Source of the DNA: Pelagomonas calceolata
Taxonomy: Eukaryota
Length of the DNA: 64,000 nucleotides
Direction: 5' to 3'
Assembly (NCBI GenBank): GCA_918797485.1
Contig: CAKKNE010000006.1
Coordinates: 1,054,001-1,118,000, forward strand
A program made the position numbers and the translations under genes. The number at the start of each line of letters is the position of its first letter. Positions within the stretch are counted from its first letter, which is position 1. A model generated the notes under the pieces. That model was given only the letters and a program-made list of their open reading frames with translations. It was not told where the DNA came from and ran no database searches. Of this stretch, positions 9,850-64,000 are shown piece after piece.

Positions 9850-12469
9850 CTAGTCCATCCACTTGAACGGCGGCGGCCGCTCGGCGATGTTCGAGATCGA
9901 CGGCAGGTCCTCCAACTCGTGGAACCGCGCGTCGCAGTGGGCCTCGAAGGCCGTCACGAAGACGAGGCCCGGCGGCACGGGCTCGTCGTCGCCGAAGCCG
10001 CCCGAGACTGGTGGTGTGTTCACTATTTTTGTGATTTTCTCGTCCCTGTCGGAGTCGTCCTCGTAGGACGAGCTATCGCTCAAATCGCCCTTCGGGCAGA
10101 CCAGCGGCCGCTTCTTCTTCGGTTTTGTGGTGTCCTTGACGTCTGAAGATGTTATTCTAGCGCGCGTCTCGGGCTCCTCCGCGTCGCCACATAGAACCGC
10201 GTCGACGCGCCTCTGCACGAACTTCCGCGCCCACTCGAGTTCGACACCCTCACAGCCCTTGCCGCGGAAGGGCGGCGCGTGCATGACCACGAAGTTCGCA
10301 TGTTGCCCTACTTTTCCGACCTCGAGCTCCTCGTCCAGAAAACGCTGTTGCTTCGCGCGTCGAGGGTCGTCGGCGAAAGCTTCATTGGTCATCAATGCCG
10401 CGTTTAGAATAACGAATCTGGCCCCCTTGCGCCACAGACAATAAAAGGACGCGCCGAACTGCGCCTCCCACGCGTCCAGGGCTGCCGGTGTCGGCGCGTC
10501 ACTCAGAGAACAGACGTAGGCCACGGGGATCGCCTCCGAGATGCGCGCCATGGCCTTGCGGAAGAGTACCAAGTTTTCTGACGACGTCGCGAAGGTCCCC
10601 ACCACAAAGACCAATGGCGGCCGTAATCTGTTAATGGCCCGCGTCGCTCGGGATAACTGTGCCAATTCCTGGTCCTTGTCCGTGTAGCCGATCCGAGGAC
10701 CCCCCATGAGACAGAAGGCCGCCGGCTGCTCGTACTGGCCTTCTGTCGAAAAGTCGCATCCTAAGTACGACAACGTATCAACGTCACTCCGCAAAGCCCG
10801 CGCGTCCACGGGACTGTCGAAAAATAACTTGTGGACGTGGGGCTTTTGTAAGGCGCCCAACCTCTCCACATAACGCTTCAGCGTGGCTCGCTCCAACGGT
10901 GACAGGTTCTTGGCTGAAGGCGCGAGTCTCTTCTCTGGAATAGCGTCGGCCTTGCGCATCGCCAAAGCGTCACCGAGCGCTCGCAGTGCAAGTTCCTTCA
11001 ACGTAGCTATTCTCGACGCCGGCCGGTCGCACCTTCTTTCACAATTTGAATACTCGTCGCGCAGGAACTCCGTGTCTCTCAACAACGATAGGTCGCCCCG
11101 CGACCCGGCGCCTAATCTCTGAGCAGGCTCCTTCCTCAACAACGCATCCACGAATCCCAAAGCGGGCGACAGCCGCAAACAAGCCGGGAAGCGGTCGGCC
11201 GCGTTGCCCCGTCGTATTTTCAAAAATGAAAAGTAAGGTGATTGAGCTCGGAACGGACTATGACCGGTCAAGAACACATGCGCGACGACCCCAATGCTCC
11301 ACAGGTCGCTCTCAATCCCCGCATTCAGGGAATCGACGGCCTCGGGCGACATGTATTCTGGAGTCCCCACAAATTCGGGCCCGTTCAACCTAGAATCTTC
11401 GAGGTCCTTCGAGGTCCCGAAGTCGATGAGCTTGACGTGGCCGCGCGCGTCGAGCATCATATTTTCCGGTTTTAGATCTCTATGTACTAAATTGTGCGCG
11501 TGGCAGTGCTCGACGGCATCTATTAACTCGGCGACCCAGCACCGCGCTAACGAGTAGGGGGCTGGTATGCCGGCCTTCGACCCGTCCGCGTTCAAAGTGC
11601 GCGACCACATCTCGCCGCCGGGACATAATTCTAGTAAGAAGTATAGCGTCGCGTAGTCCTGGAAGGTCGCGTGGAGCAGGATGATGTTCGGGTGCGGGTC
11701 GTCACTCAGTCGCTTGAGGGCGGCCTGCGCGGGGGGTCTCGTGATGACGCCATCGCCGCGAGGCGCTGTTCGAACGGCCTCAAAATCAAAAATAAAAACA
11801 GCCCCGACCCGCTCTCCCGGAGACGAGTCGCGTCGACGGCGTAAAACCGCCGCGAGGACGCCGCGTGCGCACCTTCTCCATCTTCACTTCATTATGCACG
11901 TTGGGATGCCTCCTTTTTATTTTATCGACCTGGGCCTTCTCGACGAGCTTGAGGGCGAATCGTTGGGCGTCGCTCTTCCGCGCGACCTCGTAGACGGAGG
12001 AGTAGTTGCCCGTGCCGAGTTCGCCCAAAAACTCGAAATGTTTCGCCGTCGGCGCGCCGCGCGCCTCGTCCCGCTTCTGTTCTACGAGATCTCGCAATTT
12101 TTCGAGCGCTTCTCGTTCCTTTTCCCGTCGGTAATCATCATTCGGTGGCAGGTTCTGAAAGGCTTCGTCTAGACATCTATCCGCAGCATCGTACTGCTTG
12201 TCATCACAAAGAGCTCTGGCTTTGCGGTAGTAGGCCTTGGCGTAGGTCTTATCTAACTGTAAAGCTTCATTGGCGTCATCAATGGCTTTTTGTAGGCGGC
12301 CTATGCGCATCTGCGCGGCCGCTCGATTCGCGTAGAGCACCGCGGACGGTTGGATCCCAATGGCTTTCGTGTACAACGACAAGGCCTCCTGCGGGCGGTC
12401 CTCGTGCAGCGAGCGGTTCGCGTCGTCTTTCAATTGGTCGGCGCGCTTCGCGGCGTCGAGGGCCGCCAT
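9850..12469 (-). CDS. TPR + AGC/PDK1-like Ser/Thr kinase + degenerate calcineurin-like phosphoesterase; exons 12469-11873, 11724-9850
   Basis: TPR motifs (YANRAAA, KAYYRKA) and kinase motifs LGTGNYSSV, ALK, HRDLKPEN, DFG and FVGTPEYMSPE. The C-terminus has a CPPED1-like layout. One intron restores the frame. Confidence 0.88.
11725..11872 (-). mobile_element. Introner-like intron (148 bp, GT-AG)
   Basis: GTGCGCACGCGGCGTC...CGCCGTCGACGCGACTCGTCTCC...GATTTTGAGGCCGTTCG...CCGCGCAG. Removal joins KMEK|AALKRL. Confidence 0.85.
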
Positions 12470-12874
12470 CGCGTTTCTTGTAAATGAGTACGGTGCTTGG
12501 GGTGCTGGCCAAACGAACCGCCTGCAGCGAGAATATGCCCAGCGAAAAGCTACGTGCGGCGTAGATTCAAAAGGGGCACGCGTGCGCCGCGTATGAGTCC
12601 AGCGAGTGTCGAGCTGCGCCTTGTGGCTCTTTGGCCGTGCGCCGTGCTTTCGGCAGCGGTTTGTTAGCTTATGTGGCTGTGGGGCGAGTCGTGCGGCTGT
12701 GGACGGCAAGGATTCCCACCAGCGTGCGCAGATGGCGCGTACGAGTGACAAACTTCGGCGCCGAGACTAGCGTATCGACATACTAGTAATCTGGCTGCCC
12801 GGCCGGCTAGCGCTGCCGAATAGCTCTCATAGGCAGCGTTTACGCCGTCGACGCGATCCCATCGACCGGCGGCC

Positions 12875-16113: not shown

Positions 16114-19100
16114 ATGGCGGACGCCGCGGCCGAGAAGCGCGCGGCGAACAAGTTCTCGCGCCAGAACGCCGCGCTAGGAGCGGAAACCACAAAATTCCTG
16201 CGCGAGGCCAAGGTCCTCGTCGTCGGCCTGCGCGGCGCCGGCATCGAGCGGCGCACGAATCAAATTTAGGCGCCTGCACACCCGCCTCACCGGTCGATTC
16301 GCACAGGCGTCGAGACGGCGAAGAACTGCTTGTTGCAGGGCGTCGGCCACTTATCACTCTATGACCCGAAGCCCTGCGCCGAAAGTGACAGAGGTGCCAA
16401 TTTCTTTATCGGCGCGCCGGACGTCGGCCGGCCGAGGGACCAGGTCTGCGCGCCGCGCTTGCAGGAACTCAATCCTGATGCTGTCGTCCACGTCGCCGAG
16501 GCGTTGGACGAAGACTTGGTGGAGTCGTGTACTTGTGTCGTTTTCACAGATGGTGTCAATAGAGCGGAATTAGTAAGGTGGAACGAGTTCTGCCGGTCCC
16601 GCATGACGGACGTCGTGGACGAGCGCGGCGTTTCTATGACCGTAGCGGCACCGATCAGTTTTGTGTGGGCGGTCTGTGCCGGGTTATGTCTGTCGATTTT
16701 CGTGGACCATGGGGATCAGTTCGAGTGCCGCGACGCCGACGGTGAAAGGCCTGTGGTGAGATTGGTGGAGTCGATCTCATGTGAAAAACAAGGTTTGGTA
16801 CGATACGCCGTGCCCGACGGCGTGCCCGCGACGTCGCCGCCGGTCGACTCGTTGTACGCCTTTTCTGATGTGCAGGGGTGCTGCGGGTCTGCTCTAGGAG
16901 GTAGTGGGTTGAACGACTGCGCCCCCTTCCCTTTTACTACCAACAGTGGAGACCCGGCGAACTCCTTTAGAATTGGGGACACTACTTCGTTGTCACCTTA
17001 TGAGGGAGGTGGTCTCATCACGGAAACGAAACGACCGAAAACACTACGCTTTAGAAGCTTAGGTGAGCGGTTAGTAGCGCCCGGCACGCCTTTTGGGAGT
17101 GACGGAATACCGATGACCGATTACACGTTTTCGGGCAAGGAGGCGCAGGTCCACGCCGGTCTTGTTGGATTGATGGAGTTCGAAGCCAGTCAAAAGAGAC
17201 TGCCCAACGCGAACGACGAGCAAGATGCCGAAGATGTTTTGTCTGCGGCAAAAACGTATGCGGCCGCGTGTCAAGTTTTGAACACGGCGACGGCCGACGG
17301 CGCGAAGGCGCTGGACGTCACGATTGATGAGTCTGTAGTGAGAGCCTACGCGAGGCACGCGTCCGTGGAGTTGCAGCCCGTGGCGACGTTCGCGGGCGGC
17401 GTCGTGGCCCAAGAGGTCGTCAAAAGGTCCGGAAAATACACGCCGATTGATGGCTTCGCGCACTTTGCGTTTCTCGAGACGATGCCCGATCCCCCTCCAG
17501 CCTTAGCTGATCGGGCGCCGCGCGGTGACAGGTATGACGACCTCGCGGCGGTGTTTGGGAGAAGCTTCGTCGAGAAGCTCGGTGATTTGACTTATTTTTT
17601 AGTTGGAAGCGGTGCTTTAGGCTGCGAGTTCGTGAAGAACTTTGCGCTGTGTGGCGTGTGTTGCGGTCCGGAAGGTTCGCTCACGATTGCCGATGCGGAT
17701 CGCATCGAGCTATCGAACCTCACGCGACAGTTTCTGTTCCGAGAACACAACGTGGGCCAGTCGAAAGCGCTAGCGGCGGCGGCCATGGCGACGAATCCGG
17801 GAGGACGCACGCGCGCGCCGCCCATGAACGAACATTTGAAAGTGACGTGTCATGAAGCGTACGTCGGACCCGCGACCGAGGTAAGCCCGTTCACGGACGA
17901 GTTCTGGGAGGGTTTGGACGGCGTCTGCAACGCCTTGGACAACATGGAGGCGCGGTTCTACGTCGACAAGGCCTGCGTGACCTTCGAGAAGAGCCTGTTG
18001 GAGTCGGGCACGATGGGTACTTCGGGGAACGTGCGATCTCCGCGTTTTGAGGTGTTGCGGTGCCTTCACTTTGTTGGTGTGACTCGTGTGCATCTCACTT
18101 CCATGAGAGTGGTTTCTTTGTCGAATTTGAGTGAATTCGGACCGAACCGCAATGCTCCGCGCAGGTCGACCCCGTCGTGCCGCATAAAACAAAAACTTAC
18201 AGAGAAGGAGGTAATGCGGCGGAGGGCCAGGGCGTGCCCATGTGCACTTTGCGGAACTTTCCCCATCTCATTGATCATTGCATCGAGTGGGCTCGCGATA
18301 AATTTGCCGAGTTGTTTGAAAAACCGCAACGGCGCGTCAAGAAGTTCTGTTCAGAGCCGCAGGCTACCTTGACCGATTTACAGCGGAGATTGGAGTCCAG
18401 CGATCCGGCGGATGTGGAAGGTGCGTCGGCCGAAGCGTTGTTGCTGTGGCAGGCGTTGGAGGTCGCCACTGCACCATTAGAACAAAGGCGACAGTTATGT
18501 GCTCAAAGATGTTATGATGCGTTCCACGGCTTTTTTCGGGATCAAATTTGCGATCTCATACGGGCCTATCCCAAAGATGCGAGAGTGATGAAAAATGGCC
18601 AGGACAAGGGCCCGTTCTGGTCCGGCCACAAGCGCTTCCCCACGGCGGCCACTTACGGCGACGACGCGGACCAGTGGCGCTTTCTGGTGAGCGCGACGCA
18701 CATCCTGGCGCAGAGCATGGGCGCGCAGCCTCGTAAAACGGAGGGCGACGACGACTACGCTTCTTCCGAGAGGAATGAGGTCTTTGCCGCTTCCGTGGCC
18801 CAGACTTGTGTCATCCCGCCGTACATCCCGGGCACCGTCGACAAGGACATCGAGGGCGACACTTCTGATGTAGCGACGCCGGACAATTCGGTAGATGTGG
18901 CCCGATCAAAGGGTTTGGAAGCCTTGCAGCGCCTGTCTTCCGTAAATCTCACTTCGGTAGATGTGGAACCGGCCGACTTCGAGAAAGATGACGACTACAA
19001 CTTCCACGTGCGTTTTCCGTGTCTTACGTGACGCGGTCGCCGCGCCGCCGTCGTCACGAGCCCACGAGTGATATCACACAGATCGACTTCGTCACGGCCT

Positions 19101-20101
19101 GCGCGAATTGTAGGGCCAGGAACTACGCCATCCCGCCGACCGACTTCGACAAAGCGAAACTCACGGCTGGTCGGATCATCCCCGCGATCGCGACCACCAC
19201 GGCCGCCGTGACGGGTTTGGTATTGCTCGAAATGTTCAAGATCCTCCAGGACAAGCCCGCGACGGATTTAAGAACAAGACAGGTCGGCCTCGCGCTGAAT
19301 TACTACCCGTCCTTCGACGCCGACAATTTGGTCACGTTCAAGACGAAGGACGTGCGCTCGCGGCGTCCTGTGGTGTCTTCACTTTGTCGCTGGGACTCGT
19401 ATCATGTTGTGGGTGGTTTCTTTTGCGATTTTGAGTCCGCGCAGGTGAAGACGAAGCCCGACGCCGTGTCTCTGCCGGAGCAGGCCTTCGACGCGAAGGG
19501 CGACATCAAGCCCGAGTTCTACGAAGTTACGACGATTGTAGCTTATCCGGAAGGGCACTCGGTCTGGTCGAAAATTGAGCTTCCCGAGGGTGCTGCGGAC
19601 TGGAAGGTCGCCGACCTGAAGGCCTGGTTGTCGGACGAGCACAAGCTTTCATTAACAGCCTGGAACCTGCCTTGCGGCGAGGTGACGGATTCGGATGGGG
19701 AGAAACGAGCTGTCAGTGCTAGAGTGTATCCCGCGCCGGTCGCGGTGGATCTGCGGAAGCTGCCTTCTCTAGAACTCTCAAAACCCCAGGCCATGATGGC
19801 CCTGCAGAAGCAGCGCGTGGGCGGGCTCATGATGAAGTACCTGAGCGAGTGGAGCAGATACAAGCAGCTCGGGTCCTTACCGGACAACATCCCGGAGCCC
19901 GAAAGAAGTACGGCGGAGATGACGCTCCGAGAGATCCTGGAGGTCAAGGGCAAGATGCAGCTCGGCCACAAGCGCCGCGTGATTTTAGATGGGCTGTCGT
20001 GCTCGGTCACGCGGGCCTCGCCCTCGGCGATGGACACGGACGAGCCGACCGAGGAGGAGTTCGACGTCGAGAAGCTCGCGCCGGTGCTGCTGAAGCTCTA
20101 G
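16114..20101 (+). CDS. UBA1: Ubiquitin-activating enzyme E1; exons 16114-16240, 16307-18030, 18165-19007, 19082-19351, 19445-20101 (~1206 aa)
   Basis: FSRQ, GLRGAGVETAKN, VGSGALGCE, IELSNLTRQFLFR, catalytic VPMCTLRNFP, FEKDDD and AGRIIPAIATTTA. Confidence 0.93.
16241..16306 (+). mobile_element. Eroded TIR-family introner, GC-AG intron (66 bp)
   Basis: TSD GCATCGAG / GCGTCGAG. The 3' end ACCGGTCGATTCGCACAG resembles the TIR. It contains an in-frame stop, so it must be spliced. Confidence 0.8.
18031..18164 (+). mobile_element. Introner-like intron (134 bp)
   Basis: GTGCGATCTCCGCGTTTTGAGGTGTTGCGGTGCCTTCAC...GCTCCGCGCAG. Restores GTSGN|VDPVVP. Confidence 0.85.
19008..19081 (+). other. Intron (74 bp, GT-AG), weak family similarity
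   Basis: Restores DYNFH|IDFVTA. Ends in CACACAG. Confidence 0.8.
19352..19444 (+). mobile_element. Introner-like intron (93 bp, in-frame, stopless)
   Basis: GTGCGCTCGCGGCGTCC...GGGACTCGTATCATGTTGTGGGTG...CCGCGCAG. Shares this module with intron 42262-42492. Confidence 0.78.
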
Positions 20102-24366: not shown

Positions 24367-24904
24367 CTAGAGGCCGAGCTTCGTGCGGCGCCAGTGCCGC
24401 CGCTTCGAGTTCCAGCGGATCTTGTTGCCCGTGCGCATGCGGATCCACTGGGGGATGGGCCGGTTCTGGGCCATCTTCTTCGCGAGCGTCCGCTTCGTGC
24501 GGAAGGTCTTGTGGGACGGCTGCGGAGGGGCGCGGCGGGTGAGCGGTTTGCGCGGGGCGTGGCGTGCTCTCGGGAGTTTGGTGTGTGTTGCGAGCGCAGG
24601 CGGGCGTCTCGGTGGCGCTTTTTGGCGTCGGCCGGTCCACCGCTCCGCCGCTCCGCTCGTTCGCGGCACACACAAGCGTCAGGGATTTGCGCGATGACGC
24701 AGCAAGGTCGTGTGGCTCGCGGTGGGCCCCGGAACTGCTCGCGCGCGGGCTAAGGGCCGCGCCGCAGCCCTATGAGGCCATGGAGCTGAGGCCGGCCCGC
24801 GCTCGCTGACTGCGGCGTTTCGTTGCAAACCGGCTCGTGGCGCCATCGATAGTCCTTATAGGCGTCGCGCACGCGTGTCGGTTAGTTGTGTCGTAACGTA
24901 CCAT
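24367..24904 (-). CDS. RPL39: 60S ribosomal protein L39 (eL39); exons 24904-24902 (ATG) and 24519-24367
   Basis: [51 protein letters not shown] (51 aa). CACCATG|GTACGT...CCGCAG intron at 24520-24901. Confidence 0.95.
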
Positions 24905-44700: not shown

Positions 44701-45774
44701 TTAAATATTTGTCCATGGTGTTCCTGGCGTCGTTTAATTGCGTTTCGAGCTCTTTCCCGTGGGTTTTCGCCTCCGTCGCTTCGGCCTGCAAAGCTTCCTG
44801 CTCGCCCGTGCGAGCCTCGAGGAGCTTGAGCGTGTTCTTGAGCTCCTTGTCGAGGCGCTCCTTCGACCTTTGACCCCTCTGGACTTCTGCCGACCGAGCT
44901 TGGAGACTTTGCTCGAGGTCCGCCTTGTCCCCTCGGAGCGTGGCGCACTCGACACGCTCGCTCTCAAGGACCTCGGTCATGTTGGTCAACTGCGTCTCGA
45001 GGACCTTGCACGTCCCGGTCGCTTCGTCCGTCTGCCGTTGGAGCTCGTCCCTCGCCGCGGTCAATTCTTGGACCAGGCCCTCTTGCGTGCCCGTCAACGC
45101 GGCGCTCTTCTCGACGAGACCGCTCAAATTCGCGATCTCCTCCTTGAGCGACGTGATCGTTTCTTTGGCGCTCGTTTCTTTCGATTGCGCGGTGTCGACC
45201 TGCGCGGAGCATCGTAATCGAAAAAGAAACGACCCCCGGCATCGTGCGATGGCCACGAGTCCATCCAAGGAAGTGAAGGCACCGCAACACCTCAAAACGC
45301 CGAGATCGCACCATCTTCCAGGCCTTCTCGACCTCGCTCCGCAGCGTCGTGATGGTCTGTTGATCATCTTGACTGAGTTTGAGGGCCGTGTGGACCTTGG
45401 AGGCGTTGTTCACGATCTCATTATTCAGGTCCTTGACTTTTTTAATGAGTTTTCTTTCGTGGTCCTGCGCGGGGCGTCGCGGTCGCTCGAAATCGGAAAA
45501 GAGACCACCCACGGCCTCGTGAGATGGCCACGAGTCGAAGGCACCGCAAGACGGGACGCCGCGAGCGCACGTGGCTGCGAACTAAAGCGCGGTGGACCTT
45601 CTCGTATTCGGCCCTAAACTCGTCTAAAGATTCATCTCCAGCGAGCGTCGCGAGGACGTCCTGGAACTCCTTCTCGAGGGTCTCGAAGGCGGAGAGCGAG
45701 AGGGCCTGGTCGTCGTCCTCCAATAAGCCCTTGAGGCCGCTCGACGCTCCTTCGCCCTCGACGTCGACGTCCAT
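41727..45774 (-). CDS. CFAP58: Cilia- and flagella-associated protein 58 (CCDC147), 9 exons, ~887 aa
   Basis: FRAEYEKVHRAL, ALKLSQDD, EKAWKMVD, YEAVRSDRNLYSKNLLEAQDEI, ERDILGAQVIRRNDE, NIHRWRQLEGSDP and RFTGGGF. Confidence 0.93.
42262..42492 (-). mobile_element. Introner-like intron (231 bp)
   Basis: Donor GTGCGAGC versus exon start GTGCAAGG (6/8). Carries shared modules. Confidence 0.85.
42795..42983 (-). mobile_element. Introner-like GC-AG intron (189 bp, in-frame, stopless)
   Basis: GCGCGCTCGCGGCGTTTT...GCTCCGCGCAG. Modules occur in both orientations. Confidence 0.78.
43111..43246 (-). mobile_element. Introner-like intron (136 bp)
   Basis: GTGCTGACTCGGCGTC...ACGCGCAG. Confidence 0.85.
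43541..43771 (-). mobile_element. Introner-like intron (231 bp) with internal inverted arms
   Basis: GCCGTTCGGACCGCGTCG ... CGACGCGGTCCGAGACGGC. Confidence 0.85.
43951..44150 (-). mobile_element. Introner-like intron (200 bp), module antisense
   Basis: GTGCTGCGACGGCGTCC...GAACACAG. Restores ETEK|AEQQ. Confidence 0.82.
44432..44610 (-). mobile_element. Introner-like intron (179 bp)
   Basis: GTGCGTATCTCGGCGTTTTG...GACTCGTGGCCATCTCACGAGG...CCGCAG. Confidence 0.82.
45200..45311 (-). mobile_element. Introner-like intron (112 bp)
   Basis: GTGCGATCTCGGCGTTTTGAGGTGTTGCGGTGCCTTCAC...GCTCCGCGCAG. Confidence 0.88.
45465..45570 (-). mobile_element. Introner-like intron (106 bp)
   Basis: GTGCGCTCGCGGCGTCC...CGACGCCCCGCGCAG. 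Confidence 0.88.
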
Positions 45775-46290: not shown

Positions 46291-49200
46291 ATGGGCCAGG
46301 TCATCGGCAAGGGCCGCATCCACGCCGACGCTATTCCATTTATCAACTTGGAGCCGGACCGCGTCGAGAAGCTGTGGAGCCACTACAAATTACATTCCGA
46401 CGGCTTCGCCCTGGACCCGGACGCGTTACAACACGTCCTCAAAATTATATACGAGGACGACGAGGCCTTCGAGCAGAAATGCCGCGCGTTGTTCGCTAAA
46501 TTGGACACGGACAGAAACGACTTAATCGACGCCCTCGAGTGCCTCGCGACGCTCGCGTCAGCTTCTGGGATGAAGCCGCAACGCAAATTAACTTTTGTGT
46601 TCGACCTCTACGACTTCTCGGAGAGCGGCGAGTTACTGTTAGATGAAGTTACTTTACTGTTGAAGTCTACCGTGACCGGCCTGTGCAAGATTTCTGAAGG
46701 CGAGTCCATACCGTCGCTCAAGGAGTTCGAGGATTTGGCACGCCTCGCGCTGAAGCTGGAGCCGTCGAAAGACGGGAAAGCCGTGCGGGACGTCACAAGT
46801 ACGATTAGTAGAGCTCAATTCGTCGCCTACGCCGTCGCGAACCCCACGATCAGTTCCTGGCTGAACCACTACGACGACTTAACGGCGCCCGTTGCCGTTT
46901 CCACTGAATTTGGGTTGCAGCTGCTACCGGTGAGTGACGAGTACGACTTGTATAAGCGTAAAGGCGCGTTCGAACCGAGACCGGGCTTGAATGAAGCTCC
47001 GTGTCTCGCGAAGTACGCCGCACTCACACCGAAAGTTCCCGAAGGTGAAGAATTCGTACCGCGGACGGCGACGGACGCGTCGCTCGAGCTCGATTACGTC
47101 TTCGGCTTCGGCGCTCCTGGAAGTAGGGGATCCGCGGCCTACACGACTGGCGACGACGTCGCCTTCCACGCCGCGGAATTAGCTATCCTGCGGAGTTCGG
47201 GTGACGACGGCGTTTCGCAACAATTTGTGAGAGCCCACGATGCCACGGTGACGGCGCTAGCCGTGTCTTCTGACGGCGCGACCGTCGCCACGGGGCAGCG
47301 TGGCGATTCCAGGATTGTTGTGTGGTCCTCTTCTACACAGAGTGTCCTGGGAGTATTGAAATCACACACCGGCGCTGTATCGTTACTAGCCTTCTCCGAG
47401 GATGGGAAACTAGCTTCGATCGACTCCAATGGCGGTTTATGTGTGTGGGAAGACATGAAACGAGTAGCTTCCGCTTCATTGACGACGCCGGCGCTCGGCC
47501 TGTGCTGGACCCAGACGGGCTTCGTGACCTGTTCTGAAGAGGGCGTGCTGTTCTGGACGCGGCACCGGGGGAAATATGTGTCTCGATGCGGCTTGAACGG
47601 GCCGGCCGAGGCCTATACGGGGTGCGTTACCTTACCTTCGGGTGACGTATTAACGACTACTGGTGGAGGCGGCTTCGTCGTCTGGCGCGGCCGGAACTAC
47701 CTAAGGAGCGTCGACGGAGCGCACGACAACGCGATTGCGGACCTCTCACTAGTCTCGGGCGAGATCCCGCTCCTCGCGACCTGCGAAGGCAGCAAAGTAA
47801 AGATCTGGAAAGCTGCCGAATTAGAAGTAGTGATGCAGCTCGATCTGACGACGATCCCCGCGATTGGTGCCGCCACGACGGTTTCACTCCACAAATCAGG
47901 TTCGAAGGTATTAGTCGGGACGTCCGAACGGGAATTGTACGAACTCTCAGCTTTAGGTGAAGGTGCGCTCGAACCGAAAGACGAAGAGGAAGGAGGACCG
48001 ACGGAGGAGGTACCCGTGGGCGAGTTGCTCAATACGATCGCGATCGGCCCGTCCGGCTCGGGAATCACGGACTTTTCTTCCGCGTCGACGAAGGTCGCGA
48101 CCCTAGACGCCGACGGGATTGGAAGGGACGGCACGGTCGTGGTTTTGGATTTGGAGGCGAAATCCATTGTTGGGAGAGAGGTCGTCATCGGCGGGACGTC
48201 GTGCTGCTTGTCCCCGGACGGGTCGCAAGTGCTCGTGGGCAAGGAGAACGGGTCTGGTCTAGTGTTTGGCATTGCGGACGGCATCATGACGCAGGCGGGG
48301 GTCCTGACGCCGCCGGAGCCCGAGCCCGAGCCGGCTCCCGAGCCCGCGGAGGGCGAGGAAGGTGCTGACTCAGCGTCTGTTTCCGAACGTTTCCGAACTT
48401 CAAGGTCGCGTCGATGGCGTCGCCGCGATGCCGCACCGCCTTGACGCCCTCGACGCGGCCGCATGAGAGTCTACGCGTCTCGCGCGGGAGTCACGGCCAC
48501 GTCGCGACGGCATCGTTCCCACACAGGCGAGGAGCCCGCTCCCGTCGAGGAACCGGCGACCGTCGCACCGATCTCCGCGGCTCAGGTCTGCCGCTGGGCC
48601 GAAGGCACGCTAGCACTAGCCTGTGGCGCTACAGTATACTTATACGGTAGTGATTTCGCACCGAAGGGCTCCGCTTCATTAAATGCGGACGTCACGGCCA
48701 TGGACTTCAAGGCCGACGGATCGGTCTTGATGGTCGCCACGGCTGATTTCGACCTCGCCTTCATCTCGGCGGAGGACGGCTCTACGCTACCAGACAGGAA
48801 GGGCCGGAACGGCGCGTGGGCCACGTCCACGGTAGCGATAGCGTACGGCTTCAAGGGCGTCCTCGCCAGTCTCCCGCACTCGGGTCGCGACGATCCTTTG
48901 TGCTATGCTGCTTCAGGAAACCTGTGTGCGGTCGGGAACCGGTTCGGTTCGATAGACTTACTACCCTACCCGTGCACGGAGAAAAGCAGTAAAGTCACCG
49001 TGTCAGGCCACGGCGCGGGCGTCGCCGGTGTGAGTTTCTACGGCGACGACGGCTTCGTGAGCGCCGGTCTCACGGACGGTTGTCTGATCCTGTGGAAGGT
49101 CGAGTCCGATGAAGTCGAGGACGACGCGGCCGCTCCTGAAGAAGAAGAGGAGGAGGAGGACCTCGGATTTGACAAGTACGACGCCACGCAAGATGCGCAC

Positions 49201-53883: not shown

Positions 53884-54430
53884 GGGTAATGCTGCTTGTG
53901 ATGGTGCGGCTGCGAGCAAGCTGTCCAGTGGCTGCCCAGGGTGAGACGCACGTACGTGTTGCGCCCCGCGCAGTGCTGATCGATGGCACTACACTCGAGT
54001 CGGAGTTGGGCGCCTAGGAGCCGAGAGGGCTGCCCACAACAAGCCGGCACACACCTTTGGCAGGGACCCCTAGTGGGTTTCTCACGGCGCGCCCCGCACG
54101 CTGTGGCGGGCTTTGCGACCTAGATCGCACCCCATCAGTCCCCGTCGGACGCGTCGCGCGACGCAGCTGGCCGGCGTGGCAACCGCGCGCGGCTCCACCA
54201 TCGGTCCAGCCTGAACAGAGGAGCGGTCGCACCCGTGCGACCGCTCCGCATTCGCCCACCAGCGGACGCCCCGCCGCGCGTGACCACATTCCGATGGACG
54301 AAATCGCTCCCCGTGGGCAGCGCCTTCCGCTTTCATCGCCTGTTAGGCAAAAGCAGCAACGAACAGCTGCCAAAGCGCTGCCCCCGCCGACCCCCAGCCA
54401 ACGCTTACCCCGTGCACACGTCGCTGCTCA

Positions 54431-54549
54431 GTGCGTAACTCAAATGTCGCTGCGCGCGTCGCCGCCATTGCTGAATCCTGGCATCCACGCCACCGACGCG
54501 ACGCCAGCGCGATGGCGTGCACCCGACTCACTGGTTGATTTGCGCGCAG
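54431..54549 (+). mobile_element. Probable 5'-UTR introner-like intron of the AMT gene
   Basis: GTGCGT donor. The 3' end CACCCGACTCACTGGTTGATTTGCGCGCAG matches the TIR-family subterminal region. Confidence 0.62.
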
Positions 54550-54564
54550 GTGCTCCTCTCGATC

Positions 54565-56098
54565 ATGGCCGAGACAATCACTGCGGACGCCGTCGCCGAC
54601 GCCGTCGCGCCGGGCGGCATTGATGCTGGTCATACGGCGTGGATCCTCATGTCCTGCGCCCTCGTGAACTTCATGACGCCGGGCCTGGCCTTCTTCTACG
54701 GCGGCCTCGTCCGGCGCAACCACGTGCTCTCGATCATCATCCAGAATTACGTTTGCATGGGAATCATCACGCTGATCTGGGTCGTCTGGGGCTTCTCGCT
54801 CTGCTTCGGCGCGTCCGGCTGGTTCTACGGCGACCCGGGCGACTTCGTGATGCTCAACCGCGTCTCCGGCGCGCCGCTGCCGCACGAGGGCCGCGGCAAG
54901 ATGGGCGAGGCCTACGTCGAGGGCATCCCGGGCTTGGTCTTCGCCGCGTATCAAGGGATGTTCGCCGTGATTACGCCGGCGCTGATGACTGGCGCTTTTG
55001 CCGAAAGGATTAAGTTCGCGCCGTTTCTCGTGTTCGTGGTGCTCTGGGTGCACCTCGTGTACTTTCCCTGGTGCCACTGGGTCTGGGGCCCGAACGGCTG
55101 GCTGATGACCTGGGGCGTCTGCGACTTTGCTGGAGGTTTAGTTGTGCACGTGACGGCTGGGTTCTCGGCTCTGGCTACGGTCATGGCCCTGCCGTCGAGA
55201 GAAAAGCTCGAGGGCGCCCCGGTCGACACGACGCCGCACAATGTTCCGTATGTAGCTTTAGGGACGGCCTTGCTCTGGTTCGGCTGGTTCGGCTTCAACG
55301 GCGGGAGCGCCCTCGGCTCGGACAGTGTTGCCGCATATGCTTTGATCAACACGGAGATTTCTGCCAGTGTAGCTCTATTGGTCTGGATGTTCATCGAGTG
55401 GAAGCTCGAGGGAAAACCGAGTTTGGTAGGCGTCTGCGTCGGCGCCATCGCCGGCCTCGCCACGATCACGCCGGCGGCGGGCTTCGTCAAGCCGTGGGCG
55501 GCGGTCGTGATTGGCACCGCCTCGGCCATCTTCTGCTACGCCTGCGTTTATGGATTGACGAAGATGGGCTACGACGACGCGTTAGATGTGTGGGGCGTCC
55601 ACGGCATGGGCGGCTTCCTCGGGACGTGTCTGTTGGGCGTGCTGGCGGAACACGACGTGAACGGGGTGTCCGGCGCGATCTCGGCGTCCCGCGGTGCTGC
55701 GGCGCCTTCACGCCGTCGACGCGACTCGTCTCCATCTCACAATGAAGTGGGTGGTTCGTTTTTCGAATTTGAGGCCGTTCGGACCGCGGCGAGTGACCGC
55801 GATGCTCCGCGCAGGCGACTGGAATCAGTTCAAGAAGCAACTCGCGGCGGCGTTGCTTTGTGCTATTTACAGTTTCGTCGTGGCCTTCGCGCTCATGAAG
55901 GGTTTGATGCTGGTGATGGACGTCGTCCCGGACGTGGAAATGGTGCGGTCGGGCCTCGACTACTCGATGCACGGCATGCTCGCGCACAATTCTGATGATG
56001 ACGACGCGAAGCCGAAGAAGAGCGCCGCGCGGGGCCCCGAGAAGACGGAGGAGATGGACGGTAGTGGTGCGAAGGTCGGCATCCGCCTCGACCCCTGA
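54565..56098 (+). CDS. Ammonium transporter (Amt/Mep, AMT2/AmtB-like); exons 54565-55672, 55815-56098
   Basis: MTPGLAFFYGG, FAVITPAL.TGA.AER, DFAGG.VVH, LLWFGWFGFNGGS and DDALDVWGVHG.GG (twin His). Confidence 0.95.
55673..55814 (+). mobile_element. Introner-like GC-AG intron (142 bp)
   Basis: GCGCGATCTCGGCGTCC...GCTCCGCGCAG. Restores the final TM helix. Confidence 0.85.
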
Positions 56099-57290: not shown

Positions 57291-60200
57291 ATGGCCTCGT
57301 ACCTCTACAATTCCTTAAAGAGAATTGTCGTCGGAGAAGAGGACGACGACCCGTCCTGTCTGAAGGACCCCGTGACCATGGCGCTGTACGAAGATCCTTT
57401 GAAGGGTCTAGGTCTCAAACAAACCGCACAACCGTGGGACACGAGAGACGCGCTGCGGACGAACTGCTTGAATTTAGTAGCGCAATCGTCTCTGAACCGA
57501 CGAGATAAACCTCTACTACCGCATAAATACGCGCTCATCGCCTACCACCTCGCGGCGAAAACCATCAAGGTGACGAAGGCGCAGGACCTCAAAAGGCTCC
57601 TGGACGAGGAACCGCACTTGTTCTCTGGTGCGGTCCCGCGTCGCGCGCAGGTGCCTTCACGCCATCGAGCCGCGTCGTCTCCAGGAGAGAAGGCGTCGGG
57701 CGGTCTTTTTCGCGACTTTGAGCCGTTTCGGACCGCGTCGCGACGCCGTCGTTCCGCGCAGGCCGGCCCACGGACATGCTGCAGATTCTGAGGCCGGTCC
57801 ACTGCGCCGGCGTGCCCACGAATAGTCGTGTCCGAGCGGGCGCGATGTTGCACGTCATCTACGATGATTACGTCCTGTGCCAGGACCCGGGCGACGCGCT
57901 GCCGCACCAGCAGTACGTCTGCAAGGTGTCCTATTGTGGAAGACAACATTTCGTGAGGAGACGGTTCTCGGAGTTTAAATTACTACACGATAAATTACAA
58001 AAAGAATTACTTGTGGTGCCGGGCTTTCCGAGTGCTGATGTGTCCTACAAAGTTGGCCTTGGCGATTATTCAGCGAGAGGCAAGGCTCTCTGTAGATACG
58101 CTTGTAGAGTGCACGCCTCATTGGGCGCGCGGGGCATGTTCTCGCCGCGCTTGCTCGCGTTCCTGGAGATCGACGCGGCTCGTGTTCATATCGAGGAGGA
58201 CGGTGCGGTCTCGGCGTCCCGCGGTGCCTTCACGCCATCGACGCGCGTCGTCTCCAGGAATGCTGGAAGTGGGTGGTCTCTGGTCCAAATTTGAGCCGTT
58301 TCAGACCGCGTCGAGGGACCACGATGCTCACGCAGTCGTTCCGCACAGGTCGCGTCTCGAAGATGCTCGACTCCACGTCCCAGGTCTCGGGGAGCGTCTG
58401 GCACATGGTCGACGAGTTCTGGCTGAAAAAGTGGCGCAAGTTCGTGCTAGGGCGGGCGGCGCGACGTTATGAGCCGCCGGGGCCGATTTCCAACGAACAC
58501 CTCCTCGAGAGTGTGGCGCGCACGCGCTATCTACTGACCGAATCGCTCACGGTGGAGGAAAGGAAGAAGCGCCAGAAGGAGCTCGACGAGCGCGCGACGA
58601 CCGTCCCACCACCAATACGTAGAGAAGCTCGGTTAGAATTCGACCAGCGGAGTGCCGCGGTGGACAAGTACCAGACGCCATTGGACGAGGATAGCAAGGA
58701 GGAACCCGTACAACCGGAGCCCGCGACGATAGGAAAACATTATCGGGCGATCAACTACGACCTGTGGACGTACTGGCGGATGGTGCACGGCGGCGGTGCC
58801 GAGTCAGCGTCTTCACGCCATCTTCATGAATCGTCTCCACGAGAGAATGGTTTCTTTTTCGAATTTGGGGCCGTTCGGACCGCGTCGCGACGTGGTCGCC
58901 GCGGCGCCGTCCCGAGGATCACACGAGCGTCGTCCCCGCGCAGGCCCCTGCATCTCGCGCAAGACGAAGGAAATCACCTCTCCGCCGGCCTGCGGCCCCG
59001 GCCAGGAGGCCGTGTCTCGCTTGCAACGCTTCGGGAGGATGTGCATCTCCAAACAGCGACGCATCGCGAAGTTCTGGAATCATTTATCAGGTACCGCTGC
59101 TGGAGTGAGGGAGGTCTTAGCTGATGCTGCTGAGAGGCGTATAAGAGATAGAGTGGATAGGACCCTGGGCGCGGCGCGGAACAAGCGCACGGAAGGGAGA
59201 TTGAGGTTAGCGGCTCGCTACACGCAGCGCATGTGGCGGTCGAAGCGCGCGTACGCGTTCAACGACGAGAACGTAAAAGTGATGAAGCACGCGCAGGAGA
59301 TCTTCGCGCGGGCCGACGGGGAGGTCGAGCACGCGTCGGCGGGCGCGCCCTTCGTCGTCGAGGAGGGGGAGAGGATCGTGCAGGTCGGCGCGACGGAGCA
59401 GTACGAGATCAAGTTTACCGAGTCGGATGGTCCTTCCTTGCCCGTCGTGTTCAAGCGCCATTCCTGTTCGGAGCTGACGTATGTCCACTCCGTCGGGAAG
59501 GACATGGCGATGAAGAAGGGGCGGGATCAATTGGTGCGGACGCGGCGTCCGTTGGTCTTCTCGCGCGTCGCGTCGATGGCGTCGGGGGGAGAGCAGGCCG
59601 ATTCGGGCCGCCGGTCGCCGCGATGGCGTCGACGCCGTCTTCATGATCACGCGAGGGGTCCACGCGTCGCGCGAGAGCGGGTCGCGGCGATGGCGTCTCG
59701 CGAGCGTCGTGTCGCGCCTCGCAGGTGCCCGACTCCGTGTTATTGGTGGTCCAGTCCTACCCCGTGTCGTCGTTGGCGCACGACCAGGTCATGCACCGGT
59801 TACGTTCGGCAAAATGGCCCGTCACGCTTAGATTTTCGAGACCACTCACCGATAGCGACGTGACACCCCTCGCGCGATGCTTGCAGCTGGAACAGCAGGG
59901 CGAACTGCCCGACGACCTGAAGCTGCAGATGCTCAAGCGGCTCCTCAGCAAGGGCGTCGCGGTCAGGAAACACGGCTCCAGGAAGCAGGCGTACGACACG
60001 GTCGTGTACCTCAACGAGACGATGCTCTTCTGGCGGGTGCGATCTCGGCGTTTTGAAGTGTTGCGGTGCCTTCACGCCATCGACGCGACTCGTGTCCATC
60101 TCACGAGGCCGTTCGGACCGCTTTGACGGAAATGCTCCGCGCAGGTCCGCGACGCCCTTAAGCAGCAGGCCAATTCCAAGGTGCGCAAGAAGAAGAAGAC

Positions 60201-60763
60201 CGAGGACGTCCAGGAGGAGGTGCGCGGTTTGAGTCTCAAACTGTGTGGAAATCAACCAGTGCGTCGGGTGCACCCGACAATTCTTCACTAAGTCATTTCT
60301 CGGCGATGACGTGGCCGTCCTGGCAAGGTCGAGCGGTGAGGGACCGGCATCGCCACGCCATCGAGCAGGCGTCGCGTCGATGGCGTGGAGGTCGACGCGA
60401 CGATTCAGCACGAACGCGCCGTAAAATTTTGATTTCCACACAGGTCTCAAATATGATCTCACTAAGGGTGTCGGTTTGTACGATCTGCGGTACGTGCGCG
60501 TGGGCAAGATCTCGTCGTCGTTCAAGCGCTATGCGTCGAAGAAGGCGCCTCAGGACCGGTGTTTGTCGCTATTTTGTGCGGGTTCCAAGACGATAGATCT
60601 GGAGGTGCTCGGTGACGCGAAGGAACGAGATGCCTTCGCGTGGGCCTTCGACAAGATCATTGGCGAAGCGCGGGCGACGCGCATCTTCGTGGACAAGGCC
60701 GGCGCGCCGGTCGCGCGGTCCGAGCCGAAGAAGCGGCTACGGATGATCCTGGGGGCGCACTAA
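57291..60763 (+). CDS. Multidomain protein: PX + DUSP-like + IQ-like + PDZ-like + PH; 7 exons (57291-57627, 57762-58202, 58349-58795, 58944-59533, 59725-60036, 60145-60232, 60444-60763), ~844 aa
   Basis: PX VRRRFSEFKLLHDKL; DUSP WHMVD..WLKKW..PPGPISN..HGGGPCISR; IQ-like ARYTQRMWR; PDZ-like HDQVMHRLRSAKWPVTLRF; PLC-type PH RCLSL..KTIDLE. Confidence 0.82.
57628..57761 (+). mobile_element. Introner-like intron (134 bp)
   Basis: GTGCGG...GGTGCCTTCACGCCATCGA...TTCCGCGCAG. Confidence 0.82.
58203..58348 (+). mobile_element. Introner-like intron (146 bp)
   Basis: GTGCGGTCTCGGCGTCC...TTCCGCACAG. Confidence 0.85.
58796..58943 (+). mobile_element. Introner-like intron (148 bp)
   Basis: GTGCCGAGTCAGCGTC...CCCGCGCAG. 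Restores HGG|GPC. Confidence 0.85.
59534..59724 (+). mobile_element. Introner-like intron (191 bp)
   Basis: GTGCGGACGCGGCGTCC, three copies of CGATGGCGTC, ends CCTCGCAG. Confidence 0.82.
60037..60144 (+). mobile_element. Introner-like intron (108 bp)
   Basis: GTGCGATCTCGGCGTTTTGAAGTGTTGCGGTGCCTTCAC...GCTCCGCGCAG. Confidence 0.88.
60233..60443 (+). mobile_element. Intact TIR-family introner (element 60241-60443, 203 bp)
   Basis: Perfect 15-bp TIR and perfect 8-bp TSD GTCTCAAA (60233-60240 / 60444-60451). Confidence 0.95.
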
Positions 60764-61564: not shown

Positions 61565-62020
61565 GGTTGCGGAGAGCCGGCAATTCCAATTCGAGCCTGG
61601 GGCAGCTCAGATGGGCAGCTCTGCCGGGCGCCGGGACGGGTTGGGCTCCCGGGCCCGCCGCGGAGCCGTCCCGCAACGCCTCTAAACGTCCTCAATCCCC
61701 CGAATTGCGCCCGCGCCAGACGTGCGGGTTCACGGCAACATCCCCCCCCAAAACCAAGCGCTGAGCGGCGGCACGGCGGACGCGCCCGTCTAGTCGCTTG
61801 CATCGCGCGTAGGGCTGCCCGCCGACGCCAGTCGACGCCATAAGACGGCAGCAACGCCGGGAGGGCTGCCGGAACGCTACCAATACTAGCTAGCTCGGCC
61901 GTCCGACGCCGTCGACGCCTCGACGCGGTGGAACAAAGCTGCCGCAGCGACACTACTAAGGTTTGCTGATAGAGCTAGCTAGGCCCCGCTCCGACGCCGT
62001 GTAAATAAACAGACGTCAAG

Positions 62021-64000
62021 ATGCCCGAGTTACCTGAAGGGACGATTAATGCGTTTATACAGAACAAGAACCTGGCCAAGTATGGCCTGCTCAAGGACAA
62101 CGAGGGCGGGTTTCTTGCGGAGAATTTCGTCGACTATCAGCTCATCGATAGGTGCGATCTCGGCGTCCTGCGGTGCTGCGGCGCCTTCACGCCATCGACG
62201 CGACTCGTGTCCATCTCACGATGCCGGGGGTGGTCTCTGGTCCAAATTTGGGCCGATTCGGACCGCGTCCATCATTCCTGGAGACGACGCGCGTCGACCG
62301 CCGCACGCCGCCGCGCGACCGCGACGCTCCGCGCAGGCACGAAACCCTCGAGGAAATAGTAGCGGTGGGATGGATGAGCGACTTCCACCCCTTCAACAAG
62401 GACCTCGTGGCGGACCCCTCGCCGAAGATTTTAGTTATTGTCGACCGAGAACAAACCTACGGCGACTTCTGGCGCGTTTGCTTGACCGCCGAGGCCCAAG
62501 AACGGGAGATGAAGGCCATTAATGCTGAGCAAGAAGAGGCGCGACTTCTGGCCGAGGCCATCGAGGCGGAGCGGCTGCGCGTCGAGGAGGAAGCTAGAAA
62601 GGCAGCGACGGCCGTGTACGACGACTCGCCTATTGTAGCGAAGGCCTACGCGTCGGAGACGAGGGATGAGACGTTCGAGGACGTCGCGGCGTTGGACGTC
62701 GTGCCCGAACGGCCGCTGATGCAGTTCCAGCTGTCGCGACCTGTGTGGAAATCAAAATTTTACGGCGCGTTCGTGCTGAATCGTCGCGTCAACCTCCACG
62801 CCATCGACGCGATGCCGGCTCGATGGCGTGGCGATGCCGGTTCCTCGCCGCTCGAGCGAGCCAGGATATCGGCCGACGCACTGGTTGATTTCAACACAGG
62901 TCGCGACCGGCCGACTCGATCGGCGAGCCTCGCGTGTTTGCCGACCTCTCGGCGGACAACGAGATGTTCACGGAATCGCGCTCGACGAAAAATCCTGATT
63001 TCGCCCTGGAACGACGGGAAATGTCCGTCTCCGTCCAGGCCTGCAAGGTCAAGAAAGATACGGGTTCGCAGACCTGGACGCGGCCCATCCAGGCCAGTAC
63101 GCAGTACCACCCTGTTGGAGACGCCTACCAGCTCCCACCACCTCCCCCAGAGTCGAAAAGAGAACGCCAGGCGTCCCGACAGAAGCTCGTGAACGGTAAA
63201 AAGGGCCAGGTCGAGGAGGACACTAGTCTGATGACCGAGGACCAGCTCAACGAAAGAAAGAAGGCTGCGGAGCGAGACAGGAGCTACGCGCACGTCGCCC
63301 GGTTCCTCGCCAAGACCTTTGGGCTGATGGAGAACGCGCTGGAACAGAACGAGACGGTCGACGTGTTCGGGGATCTTTTTAAGGGTGCTGACTCAGCGTC
63401 CGTTTTTGATGAATGAACTTCAAGGTCGCGTCGATGGCGTCGGCGCGACGCCACGCCACCGCGGCGCCGTCGACGGGGCCGTGTGAGAGTCCACGGGTCT
63501 CGTGAGCGTCGCGTCGCGACCGCGGCCCCGCGCAGGTACTGGGGCCGGCGCCGAAGACCTGGAAGCGTCCAAAGGTGCGCTCGGTGAATTGAAAGAATTA
63601 CGGACCTTCGCCGACATCAACAGGACGAAAGGAAAACACTTACACAGCTTGCAGTGGCACCCCGCTCGCAAGGGCGTCGTCGCCGTCGGCCCGCGCTCCA
63701 ACTTAACCTTCGAGGACCGTTTACCGTCGAGTGGCTTTTCGTCGTCGTCGCACGTCCTGTACTGGGACTTTGCTGATTTAATAACGCCGTTACTCGTGTT
63801 GGAGGCGCCTTATAGCGTGGAAGCCTTTGCGATTAACACAGAGCGGCCCCACCTCGTCTGTGGCGGCCTCGAGAACGGCCAGGTGCTCGTCTGGGACACG
63901 TCGGCATCCACACAAGCTATCGACGCGAAGCGACAGCGAGAGAAGCGGCGACTCGCGGGAGAAAGCACGAAGGACGACGAGGAAGCGGCTCTCTTTGATG
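62021..64000 (+). CDS. DNAI3: Axonemal dynein intermediate chain WDR63/IC140-like, 3' end outside window; exons 62021-62151, 62337-62732, 62900-63384, 63536->64000
   Basis: SDFHP, ILVIVDRE.TYG, STQYHP, ALEQNE.VDVF, LKE.RTFAD..LQWHP and GGLENGQVLVWD. Confidence 0.82.
62152..62336 (+). mobile_element. Introner-like intron (185 bp)
   Basis: GTGCGATCTCGGCGTCC...CGACGCTCCGCGCAG. Confidence 0.88.
62733..62899 (+). mobile_element. Intact TIR-family introner (element 62741-62899, 159 bp)
   Basis: TIR 14/15 and perfect TSD GTCGCGAC (62733-62740 / 62900-62907). Confidence 0.95.
63385..63535 (+). mobile_element. Introner-like intron (151 bp)
   Basis: GTGCTGACTCAGCGTC...GAACTTCAAGGTCGCGTCGATGGCGTCG...CCCGCGCAG. 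Confidence 0.88.

What the first reader, a model, noticed from the sequence alone, without database searches (positions are those of the whole stretch)
11725..63535. Nearly all ~35 introns are built from shared repeat modules: mass intron gain
Seen: apart from the RPL39 intron and possibly 19008-19081, introns in ten unrelated genes share GTGCG(A/C)TC(T/G)CGGCGT or GTGCTGACTCAGCGTC starts and (CG)CGCAG/CACAG ends. They also share the internal blocks GGTGCCTTCACGCCATCGACGCGACTCGT, GGGTGGT..TTT..GATTT.GAGGCCGTTCGGACCGCGTCG and GAGAGTC.ACGCGTC. Several interrupt highly conserved motifs ([22 protein letters not shown]). Inference: these are waves of introner invasion with at least three subfamilies.
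Basis: partly seen in the sequence, partly recalled or inferred. Interest (0 to 1): 0.85.

Follow-up and report, generated by a model that had tools for sequence, protein, structure and literature searches.

The report
Transposon-made introns overwritten in place
Nearly every intron in this marine alga's DNA is built from the same few repeat pieces and sits where a close relative has no intron, a known kind of transposon-driven intron gain, but here the same intron position holds different sequences in different wild lineages, which likely means old introns keep being overwritten by copies of other introns.

Summary
Real, and mostly known. I annotated 35 introns in 11 genes; RNA reads show 14 of the 16 in the stretch laid last. 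33 of 35 belong to repeat families (31 by core similarity above 5,950 shuffles, 2 more by their ends). Five carry an 8-bp target duplication, four with clear terminal inverted repeats. A syntenic relative lacks 14 of 14 positions tested, and distant orthologues share none exactly. The host is a pelagophyte, probably Pelagomonas; introners are published for this group. Three features I did not find in print: (1) sites are phased at about 147.5 bp; (2) one site holds different intron sequences in different lineages (occupied in 11 of 11 environmental proteins reaching one site, with several different 5' ends); (3) introns without duplications keep a faint 8-bp duplication signal (p=0.003). Best reading: MITE insertion made the sites, then copying between introns replaced their ends and bodies (inferred). 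Main rival: parallel insertion at hotspots. The scan noted introners in at least 61 genomes before, none in this one.

The parts
11725..11872 (-). Intron in TPR-kinase gene; module A forward; GT-AG
   Evidence: inferred from open frame
16241..16306 (+). UBA1 intron 1; GC donor inside an 8-bp target duplication (7/8 match); inverted repeats decayed (not significant)
18031..18164 (+). UBA1 intron 2; module A
19008..19081 (+). UBA1 intron 3; family membership uncertain (best core score 37, shuffle maximum 40); only family-like intron whose next exon does not start with G
19352..19444 (+). UBA1 intron 4; module A, shortened
24520..24901 (-). RPL39 intron; not a family member (internal control)
26022..26092 (-). 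Short TIR element with 8-bp target duplication (7/8), gene of unknown family
26229..26551 (-). TIR ends and 8-bp duplication (7/8) enclosing a module-A body: links the two intron classes
30849..30925 (+). FtsZ intron; GC donor; shortened module A
38884..39045 (-). ABCF intron 6; module C
39227..39394 (-). ABCF intron 5; A plus C mosaic
39529..39616 (-). ABCF intron 4; module A reversed; site occupied by different sequences in other lineages
39764..39829 (-). ABCF intron 3; module A reversed; the same site holds a full module-C intron in L030 and L031
39943..40095 (-). ABCF intron 2; module C
40384..40481 (-). ABCF intron 1; shortened module C
42262..42492 (-). CFAP58 intron 8; A-like 5' half, C-like 3' half; L040 shares its 3' part, L030-L033 carry a different form
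42795..42983 (-). CFAP58 intron 7; GC donor; module A forward plus reversed; different occupant in L033
43111..43246 (-). CFAP58 intron 6; module C
43541..43771 (-). CFAP58 intron 5; module A forward plus reversed
   Evidence: loose RNA ends at 43770
43951..44150 (-). CFAP58 intron 4; module A reversed; site occupied in every intron-bearing lineage covering it, with four different 5' ends
   Evidence: RNA joint
44432..44610 (-). CFAP58 intron 3; module A
   Evidence: RNA joint
45200..45311 (-). CFAP58 intron 2; module A
   Evidence: RNA joint
45465..45570 (-). CFAP58 intron 1; module A
   Evidence: not among the RNA rows displayed
48362..48526 (+). EML-like WD40 gene intron; full-length module-C intron, 84% identical over its length to an intron in CFAP58 of L035; absent in L028 and L029
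   Evidence: not among the RNA rows displayed
54420..54549 (+). Ammonium transporter intron 1, upstream of the first ATG used; reversed TIR-element remnant
   Evidence: RNA joints
55673..55814 (+). Ammonium transporter intron 2; GC donor; full-length module-A intron
   Evidence: RNA joints
57628..57761 (+). PX/DUSP-domain gene intron 1; module A
   Evidence: RNA joint
58203..58348 (+). PX gene intron 2; module A
   Evidence: RNA joint
58796..58943 (+). PX gene intron 3; module A body with C-type start
   Evidence: RNA joint
59534..59724 (+). PX gene intron 4; mosaic
   Evidence: RNA joint
60037..60144 (+). PX gene intron 5; module A
   Evidence: RNA joint
60233..60443 (+). PX gene intron 6; 211-nt TIR element with perfect 8-bp target duplication; donor taken from the left duplication copy
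   Evidence: RNA joint with 8 shared letters
62152..62336 (+). Last gene intron 1; module A
   Evidence: RNA joint
62733..62899 (+). Last gene intron 2; same TIR element as 60233-60443 in the opposite orientation, perfect 8-bp duplication
   Evidence: RNA joint
63385..63535 (+). Last gene intron 3; module C
   Evidence: RNA joint

Best explanation
These are spliced introns built from a few shared repeat modules, and they likely arose when small non-autonomous DNA transposons (introners) inserted into genes and were later likely overwritten in place by copying from other introns. Step 1 (anatomy and splicing shown for the intact copies; extension to the rest inferred): a roughly 200-nt element with terminal inverted repeats inserts in either orientation and duplicates 8 bp. 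If the target begins GT or GC, the left duplicate supplies the donor and the element's terminal CAG supplies the acceptor, so splicing restores the message exactly. Step 2 (phasing shown; cause inferred): insertions fall at about 147.5-bp intervals, probably in nucleosome linkers. Step 3 (different occupants of one site shown; mechanism inferred): break repair or gene conversion between related introns, plus nested insertion and deletion, swaps bodies and ends at an occupied site. Only products that keep the exon boundaries survive, so a shared donor motif spreads and the duplication fades.
For: Target duplications of 7-8/8 in 5 introns; TIRs beat 200 of 200 shuffles in 4 of them; one element occurs in both orientations at 94% identity over aligned bases. 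RNA joints for both intact copies. No residue gained or lost at 8 of 8 CFAP58 junctions against 12 homologues. The next exon starts with G in 33 of 34 family-like introns and GT/GC in 30, while only 6 of 34 upstream exons end in AG. Introns lacking TIRs match their own downstream exon at positions 3-8 (92 matches vs 75.0 permuted, n=44, p=0.003; p=0.037 and p=0.044 in the two subsets) but not at positions 9-12 (52 vs 52.8). Period 147.5 bp over 37 sites, 0 of 1,000 random sets; window-only 29 sites, 1 of 1,000. The ABCF intron-4 site is occupied in 4 of 4 intron-bearing loci and 11 of 11 environmental proteins that reach it, with several different 5' ends; P0149 has the L030 body behind a different start. 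At the CFAP58 intron-4 site, L034 has the L030 body and the last 13 nt of L032, and L030 and L032 have different introns but 15 of 16 identical flanking third positions against 0.68 gene-wide. At the ABCF intron-3 site, L031 shares 15 of 16 starting bases with the window but has an unrelated module-C body.
Against: None of the 14 window introns in CFAP58 and ABCF keeps a duplication plus TIR, including those missing from all DNA loci that cover them. Full-length copies occur in unrelated genes (84% over 163-165 nt; 80% over 140-142 nt), as whole-intron transposition would give. The TSD-less class shows no consistent TIR. The duplication ghost is small, and donor position 2 alone is not significant when pooled (p=0.18); two relative introns have GC donors without GC downstream. 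Flank identity for different-occupant pairs is only 0.611 vs 0.551 expected over 22 non-independent pairs. About one site per 147-bp unit in ABCF makes hotspot re-insertion more plausible. Phasing is not significant for ABCF alone (p=0.156) or PX alone (p=0.475), and I found no matching CG periodicity. Metagenome contigs may be chimeric. No transposase was looked for because no genome was held.
Confidence: 0.6

Rival explanations
1. The TSD-less families A and C are mobile as whole introns that carry both splice sites and insert without duplication before G(T/C). Strong site preference makes different families hit the same base repeatedly (parallel gain), in waves.
For: End-to-end similar introns in unrelated genes and lineages. 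Near-miss sites 5, 7 and 24 nt apart show repeated use of the same interval. No new ABCF site was evident among the close environmental protein fragments, read at residue resolution. Parallel gains are reported for fungal ILEs (PMC4457414, passages), and many introner families lack TSD or TIR (PMC9860276, passages).
Against: Does not explain one body behind different starts, or one end behind different bodies, at a single site. Does not explain a site occupied in 11 of 11 proteins with many occupants, or a match to the downstream exon that stops at 8 bp.
Confidence: 0.27
2. The introns spread through RNA: spliced introns reverse-splice into other transcripts and are reverse-transcribed, as proposed for fungal ILEs.
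For: 29 of 34 family-like introns lack a clear duplication and lie in genes; this model is described in PMC9860276 and PMC3879977 (passages).
Against: TIR elements with 8-bp duplications lie in both orientations and modules are reversed inside introns. Sites are phased on DNA coordinates. Upstream exons rarely end in AG (6 of 34).
Confidence: 0.06
3. The introns are old and were secondarily colonised by repeats, or their similarity reflects splice-signal convergence in GC-rich DNA.
For: One distant lineage (L058-L062, L064, L071) has an intron 1 nt from CFAP58 intron 8, and others lie 7-11 nt from window sites.
Against: The syntenic relative L037/L038 lacks 14 of 14 positions. No exact match was found in distant orthologues. 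Similarity persists after trimming the ends and exceeds shuffles.
Confidence: 0.04

Closest known systems
Introner elements of Pelagomonas calceolata (Guerin et al. 2022, PMC9481584; main-text passages and Supplementary Note 3 seen, figure S3 logos not visible)
   Same: Intron length peak near 210 bp (intact copy here is 211 nt), GT and GC donors, AG acceptor, conserved TIRs, 956 putative elements. The window is probably this species or a close relative (inferred; assembly not matched).
   Different: The passages seen give no target duplication, families, orientation, site phasing, comparison across lineages or same-site turnover. Only introns more than 90% covered by a repeat were counted there.
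Aureococcus anophagefferens introner elements (Huff, Zilberman and Roy 2016; paper not held; seen only as cited in PMC9860276 and PMC9481584)
   Same: MITE-like elements with TSDs, TIRs and linker-biased insertion (cited passages). The 8-bp duplication and the donor co-opted from it are recalled, not read.
   Different: Here only 5 of 34 family-like introns keep that anatomy; the rest have shared donor motifs and mosaic bodies. I could not check whether that paper describes this.
Introner types in Gozashti et al. 2022 (PMC9860276, passages)
   Same: Type B (Symbiodinium): TIRs, own 3' splice site, 5' site co-opted from the TSD. An Aureococcus sp. family has an 8-bp TSD.
   Different: Type B has a 4-bp TSD. 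The Aureococcus sp. family adds 12 bp to the transcript, whereas no residue is added at 8 of 8 CFAP58 junctions here. The words 'gene conversion', 'replace' and 'parallel' do not occur in its main text.
Micromonas introner elements (PMC3879977, PMC4540971, review PMC11282704; passages)
   Same: Mass gain, GC donors, presence/absence polymorphism in metagenomes, and several nested or merged elements.
   Different: 3-nt TSD supplying the 3' splice site. Elements at homologous positions were 93-100% identical in the passages seen, not different families.
Fungal introner-like elements (PMC4457414, passages)
   Same: Families that degenerate and shorten; parallel gains at shared or neighbouring positions.
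   Different: They lack TSD and TIR (PMC9860276). Shared positions were between distant species and were read as parallel gain, without mosaic occupants.

Membership tests
Introner (repeat-derived spliceosomal intron) | Introns in unrelated genes share sequence beyond splice signals | tested here: met
   31 of 35 in one component above 5,950 shuffles
Introner (repeat-derived spliceosomal intron) | Removed from RNA with no change to the protein | tested here: met
   14 of 16 RNA joints displayed; gap-free at 8 of 8 CFAP58 junctions
Introner (repeat-derived spliceosomal intron) | Positions absent from relatives (gain) | tested here: met
   14 of 14 absent in L037/L038; no exact match in L041-L107 for CFAP58; only CFAP58, ABCF and the EML intron tested
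Introner (repeat-derived spliceosomal intron) | Many copies genome-wide | tested here: inconclusive
   No genome held. In a DNA run, 2,035 contigs laid on 20 kb, with summed depth 2-20 thousand over intron bins and about 600-700 over intron-free bins
MITE-type DNA introner (5 TSD-bearing copies) | Terminal inverted repeats | tested here: met
   4 of 5 beat 200 of 200 shuffles; 16241-16306 does not (p=0.16)
MITE-type DNA introner (5 TSD-bearing copies) | Target site duplication supplying one splice site | tested here: met
   8/8, 8/8, 7/8, 7/8, 7/8; RNA joints with 8 and 9 shared letters
MITE-type DNA introner (5 TSD-bearing copies) | Insertion in either orientation | tested here: met
   60233-60443 and 62733-62899 are opposite
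MITE-type DNA introner (5 TSD-bearing copies) | Autonomous transposase partner | not testable with these tools
   No genome held
MITE-type DNA introner (29 other introns) | Intact TIR and TSD | tested here: not met
   No consistent TIR; only a statistical remnant of an 8-bp duplication
MITE-type DNA introner (all) | Insertion in nucleosome linkers | tested here: inconclusive
   147.5-bp phasing but no chromatin data and no CG periodicity detected
Fungal-type ILE (RNA-based model) | No TSD or TIR and fixed orientation | tested here: not met
   TSD/TIR copies and reversed modules present

The most novel reading that the evidence does not exclude
In this algal species complex, intron positions behave as fixed slots, about one per nucleosome-sized interval, opened once by an 8-bp-duplicating MITE. 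Their contents, splice donor included, are then replaced again and again by copying from other introns. Some apparently young, TSD-less introner families would then be products of concerted evolution among introns, not mobile elements, and family similarity would misdate intron gain.
Probability: 0.45. Interest if true: 0.75.

Novelty: new variant of a known kind. Interest (0 to 1): 0.55.

Why it matters
Introner-driven gain in pelagophytes is published, so the headline is not new. How introner copies turn into ordinary introns, and how families without TSD or TIR move, are open questions. If occupants are replaced at fixed sites, TSD-less families need no transposition mechanism of their own, and counts and ages of introner waves are biased. 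The organism is in culture with RNA-seq, and wild lineages differ at these sites, so the idea is directly testable. The 147.5-bp phasing also predicts an unusually short nucleosome spacing.

Tried and rejected
No whole genome was held, so genome-wide clustering was not possible. The module-A pattern gave 0 matches in viral contigs and 0 in prokaryote genomes. A 16-base TIR pattern gave 27 single matches in viral contigs, none paired, read as chance and not followed. CG, TA and AT periodicity scans gave no peak at 147 bp. The idea that the shared GTGCG start is a mutated TIR was tested by end self-complementarity and not supported for most introns. A Micromonas-type duplication at the 3' end was rejected because few upstream exons end in AG. 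Horizontal transfer of elements was considered, since elements are 84-92% identical between lineages whose 4-fold sites are 46-57% identical. It is not claimed: intergenic DNA is also well conserved between some pairs and the lineages look recombinant. Host trees were poorly resolved and not used to order events. The intron caller for distant orthologues gave spurious long 'introns' from coiled-coil repeats; I used only the short GT-AG calls. The joint table was crowded by DNA-contig repeats and showed 2 splice joints of 212 rows. Huff 2016 and a second paper id were not held. Sequence and place look-ups of earlier scan notes gave nothing relevant.


Full report
Annotation. Reading the whole window and a self-BLAST gave 35 introns in 11 genes from 11725 to 63535. 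Removing them yields long open frames (one boundary corrected). Pfam names a TPR-kinase, UBA1, RPL39, FtsZ, an ABC ATPase, an EML-like WD40 protein, an ammonium transporter and a PX/DUSP protein; two genes had no hit among the exons scanned. CFAP58 and ABCF2 were named from homologues. The spliced CFAP58 is 887 aa and aligns without a gap at 8 of 8 junctions with 12 homologues. PolyA reads show joints of exactly the annotated length for 14 of the 16 introns in 43700-63699; 15 further rows were hidden. Introns before 43700 rest on open frames and homology.

Is the sharing real? With 16 nt cut from each end, 113 of 595 pairs exceed the best of 5,950 shuffled pairs, and 31 of 35 introns join one component. 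Two more are short elements with target duplications. The literal motifs are less universal than stated: 8 of 35 exact starts, 22 within 4 mismatches. DNA contigs pile up over the introns, which suggests many genomic copies; no genome was held to count them.

Two classes. Five introns begin with 8 bases that repeat the start of the next exon (8/8, 8/8, 7/8, 7/8, 7/8), and four of them have significant inverted repeats from base 9 to the final CAG. Two are the same element in opposite orientations. The left duplicate gives the GT or GC donor and the element's end gives the acceptor. The other 29 have no intact duplication or TIR. Most share a donor-proximal motif, and their bodies are made of module A and module C, forward, reversed or both. 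One intron, 26229-26551, has TIR ends around a module-A body. The next exon starts with G in 33 of 34 family-like introns (GT 18, GC 12, GA 3), while only 6 of 34 upstream exons end in AG.

Host. Among the best named homologues are pelagophytes (Chrysophaeum, Pelagophyceae sp., Aureoumbra). GC is about 62%, and cultured-strain and seawater runs hold the sequence. P. calceolata has a 210-bp intron peak and 956 putative introners with GT/GC donors and TIRs (PMC9481584, passages and Supplementary Note 3). I infer this species or a close relative and did not match the assembly.

Gain, not ancestry. A metagenome scan with the last CFAP58 exon kept the best 80 of 294 relatives. L037 and L038 are syntenic genomic contigs, 74-76% identical in coding DNA, and lack all 14 CFAP58 and ABCF introns. 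In distant loci L041-L107 I found no intron at an exact window position; the nearest credible ones are 1, 7, 10 and 11 nt away. Many short loci may be transcripts, and the caller was noisy. Family modules were found only in the window and in 10 of the 13 loci L028-L040.

Phasing. In intron-free coordinates, 37 sites in six genes are best fitted by a 147.5-bp period (0 of 1,000 random sets; 1 of 1,000 for the 29 window sites alone). CFAP58 is significant alone; ABCF (p=0.156) and PX (p=0.475) are not. A site found later in L029 falls in phase. Linker-biased insertion is reported for Aureococcus and Micromonas introners (PMC9860276, passages), so a nucleosome cause is likely. I found no CG periodicity to confirm it, and 147.5 bp is shorter than the repeat lengths I recall.

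Same site, different intron. Closer lineages (78-83% coding identity) carry the same families at partly shared sites. At six sites the occupants differ. CFAP58 intron 4 is present in the window, L028/L029, L030, L032 and L034, with four different 5' ends among the complete copies; L034 combines the L030 body with the L032 3' end. ABCF intron 3 is a short reversed module A in the window and L029 but a full module-C intron in L030 and L031, with a near-identical first 16 nt. ABCF intron 4 is occupied in 11 of 11 close environmental proteins that reach it (6 of 17 did not reach it), with several different read-through starts; P0149 matches the L030 body at 14 of 15 residues behind another start. 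Flanking third positions are more alike than gene-wide for same-occupant pairs (0.720 vs 0.635, 17 pairs) and different-occupant pairs (0.611 vs 0.551, 22 pairs), but not where one or neither has the intron (0.542 vs 0.563; 0.558 vs 0.573); pairs are not independent. Non-TIR introns match their own downstream exon at bases 3-8 (92 vs 75.0, n=44, p=0.003) and not at 9-12.

Mechanism. I commit to insertion by an 8-bp-duplicating MITE followed by replacement in place. Introner origin is about 0.9 likely; the full account is 0.6. Parallel insertion of whole-intron families at hotspots remains open (0.27): full-length copies exist in unrelated genes, none of the 14 CFAP58/ABCF introns keeps a duplication, sites are few, and contigs may be chimeric.

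Literature. Nested or merged introners are reported in Micromonas (PMC3879977, passages) and parallel gains in fungi (PMC4457414, passages). A search for introner plus 'intron replacement' found 0 papers. Introner plus 'gene conversion' listed 13, seen as listings only, none with a title on this; searches added none. Huff 2016 was not held and may cover part of this, as may figure S3 of PMC9481584, which I could not see.

Verdict. A real introner system of a known kind, with a possibly undescribed turnover of intron content at fixed, phased sites. Interest 0.55.

Noticed in passing
L028, L029, L039 vs window ABCF 40480-41146: Two intron sites 100 nt apart show all four presence/absence combinations, and L028 and L029 are nearly identical up to about base 300 of ABCF and then diverge. 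This points to recombination among very divergent lineages, or to chimeric assembly.
   Followed up: partly
L030 vs L031 (ABCF): Three shared introns are 94-97% identical while 4-fold sites are 58-66% identical, with 11-27 identical exon bases next to the junctions; this could be short identity-by-descent tracts or constraint.
   Followed up: partly
window vs L028-L040: Relatives with 98-99% protein identity in the last CFAP58 exon have 4-fold-site identity of only 0.46-0.57 to the window, suggesting a hyper-diverse species complex.
   Followed up: partly
window 60233-60443 and L029 10964-11106: The TIR element is 92% identical over 144 nt between lineages with nearly saturated synonymous sites.
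   Followed up: partly
window 60241-60400: Many polyA reads from other loci map on this element (963 loose-ended reads at 60241), so other copies are present in transcripts.
   Followed up: no
window 7211-7276 and 9716-9743: Short module fragments outside annotated introns, between genes.
   Followed up: no
window 1-11700 and 46291-53130: No family intron in the first 11.7 kb and only one in the 6.7-kb EML-like coding sequence, against 14 in 4.7 kb of CFAP58 and ABCF; intron density is very uneven.
   Followed up: no
window about 26255-26345: About four tandem copies of a 22-nt module piece inside the 323-nt intron, seen by eye.
   Followed up: no
L058-L062, L064, L071: A distant lineage has an unrelated intron 1 nt from CFAP58 intron 8, in a different phase.
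   Followed up: yes
window 20160-20285 and 29127-29252: A 126-bp repeat shared by two places outside introns, probably fragments of a repeated gene family.
   Followed up: no
34 family-like introns: Median length is 147 nt (range 66-323), the same as the site period; may be coincidence.
   Followed up: no
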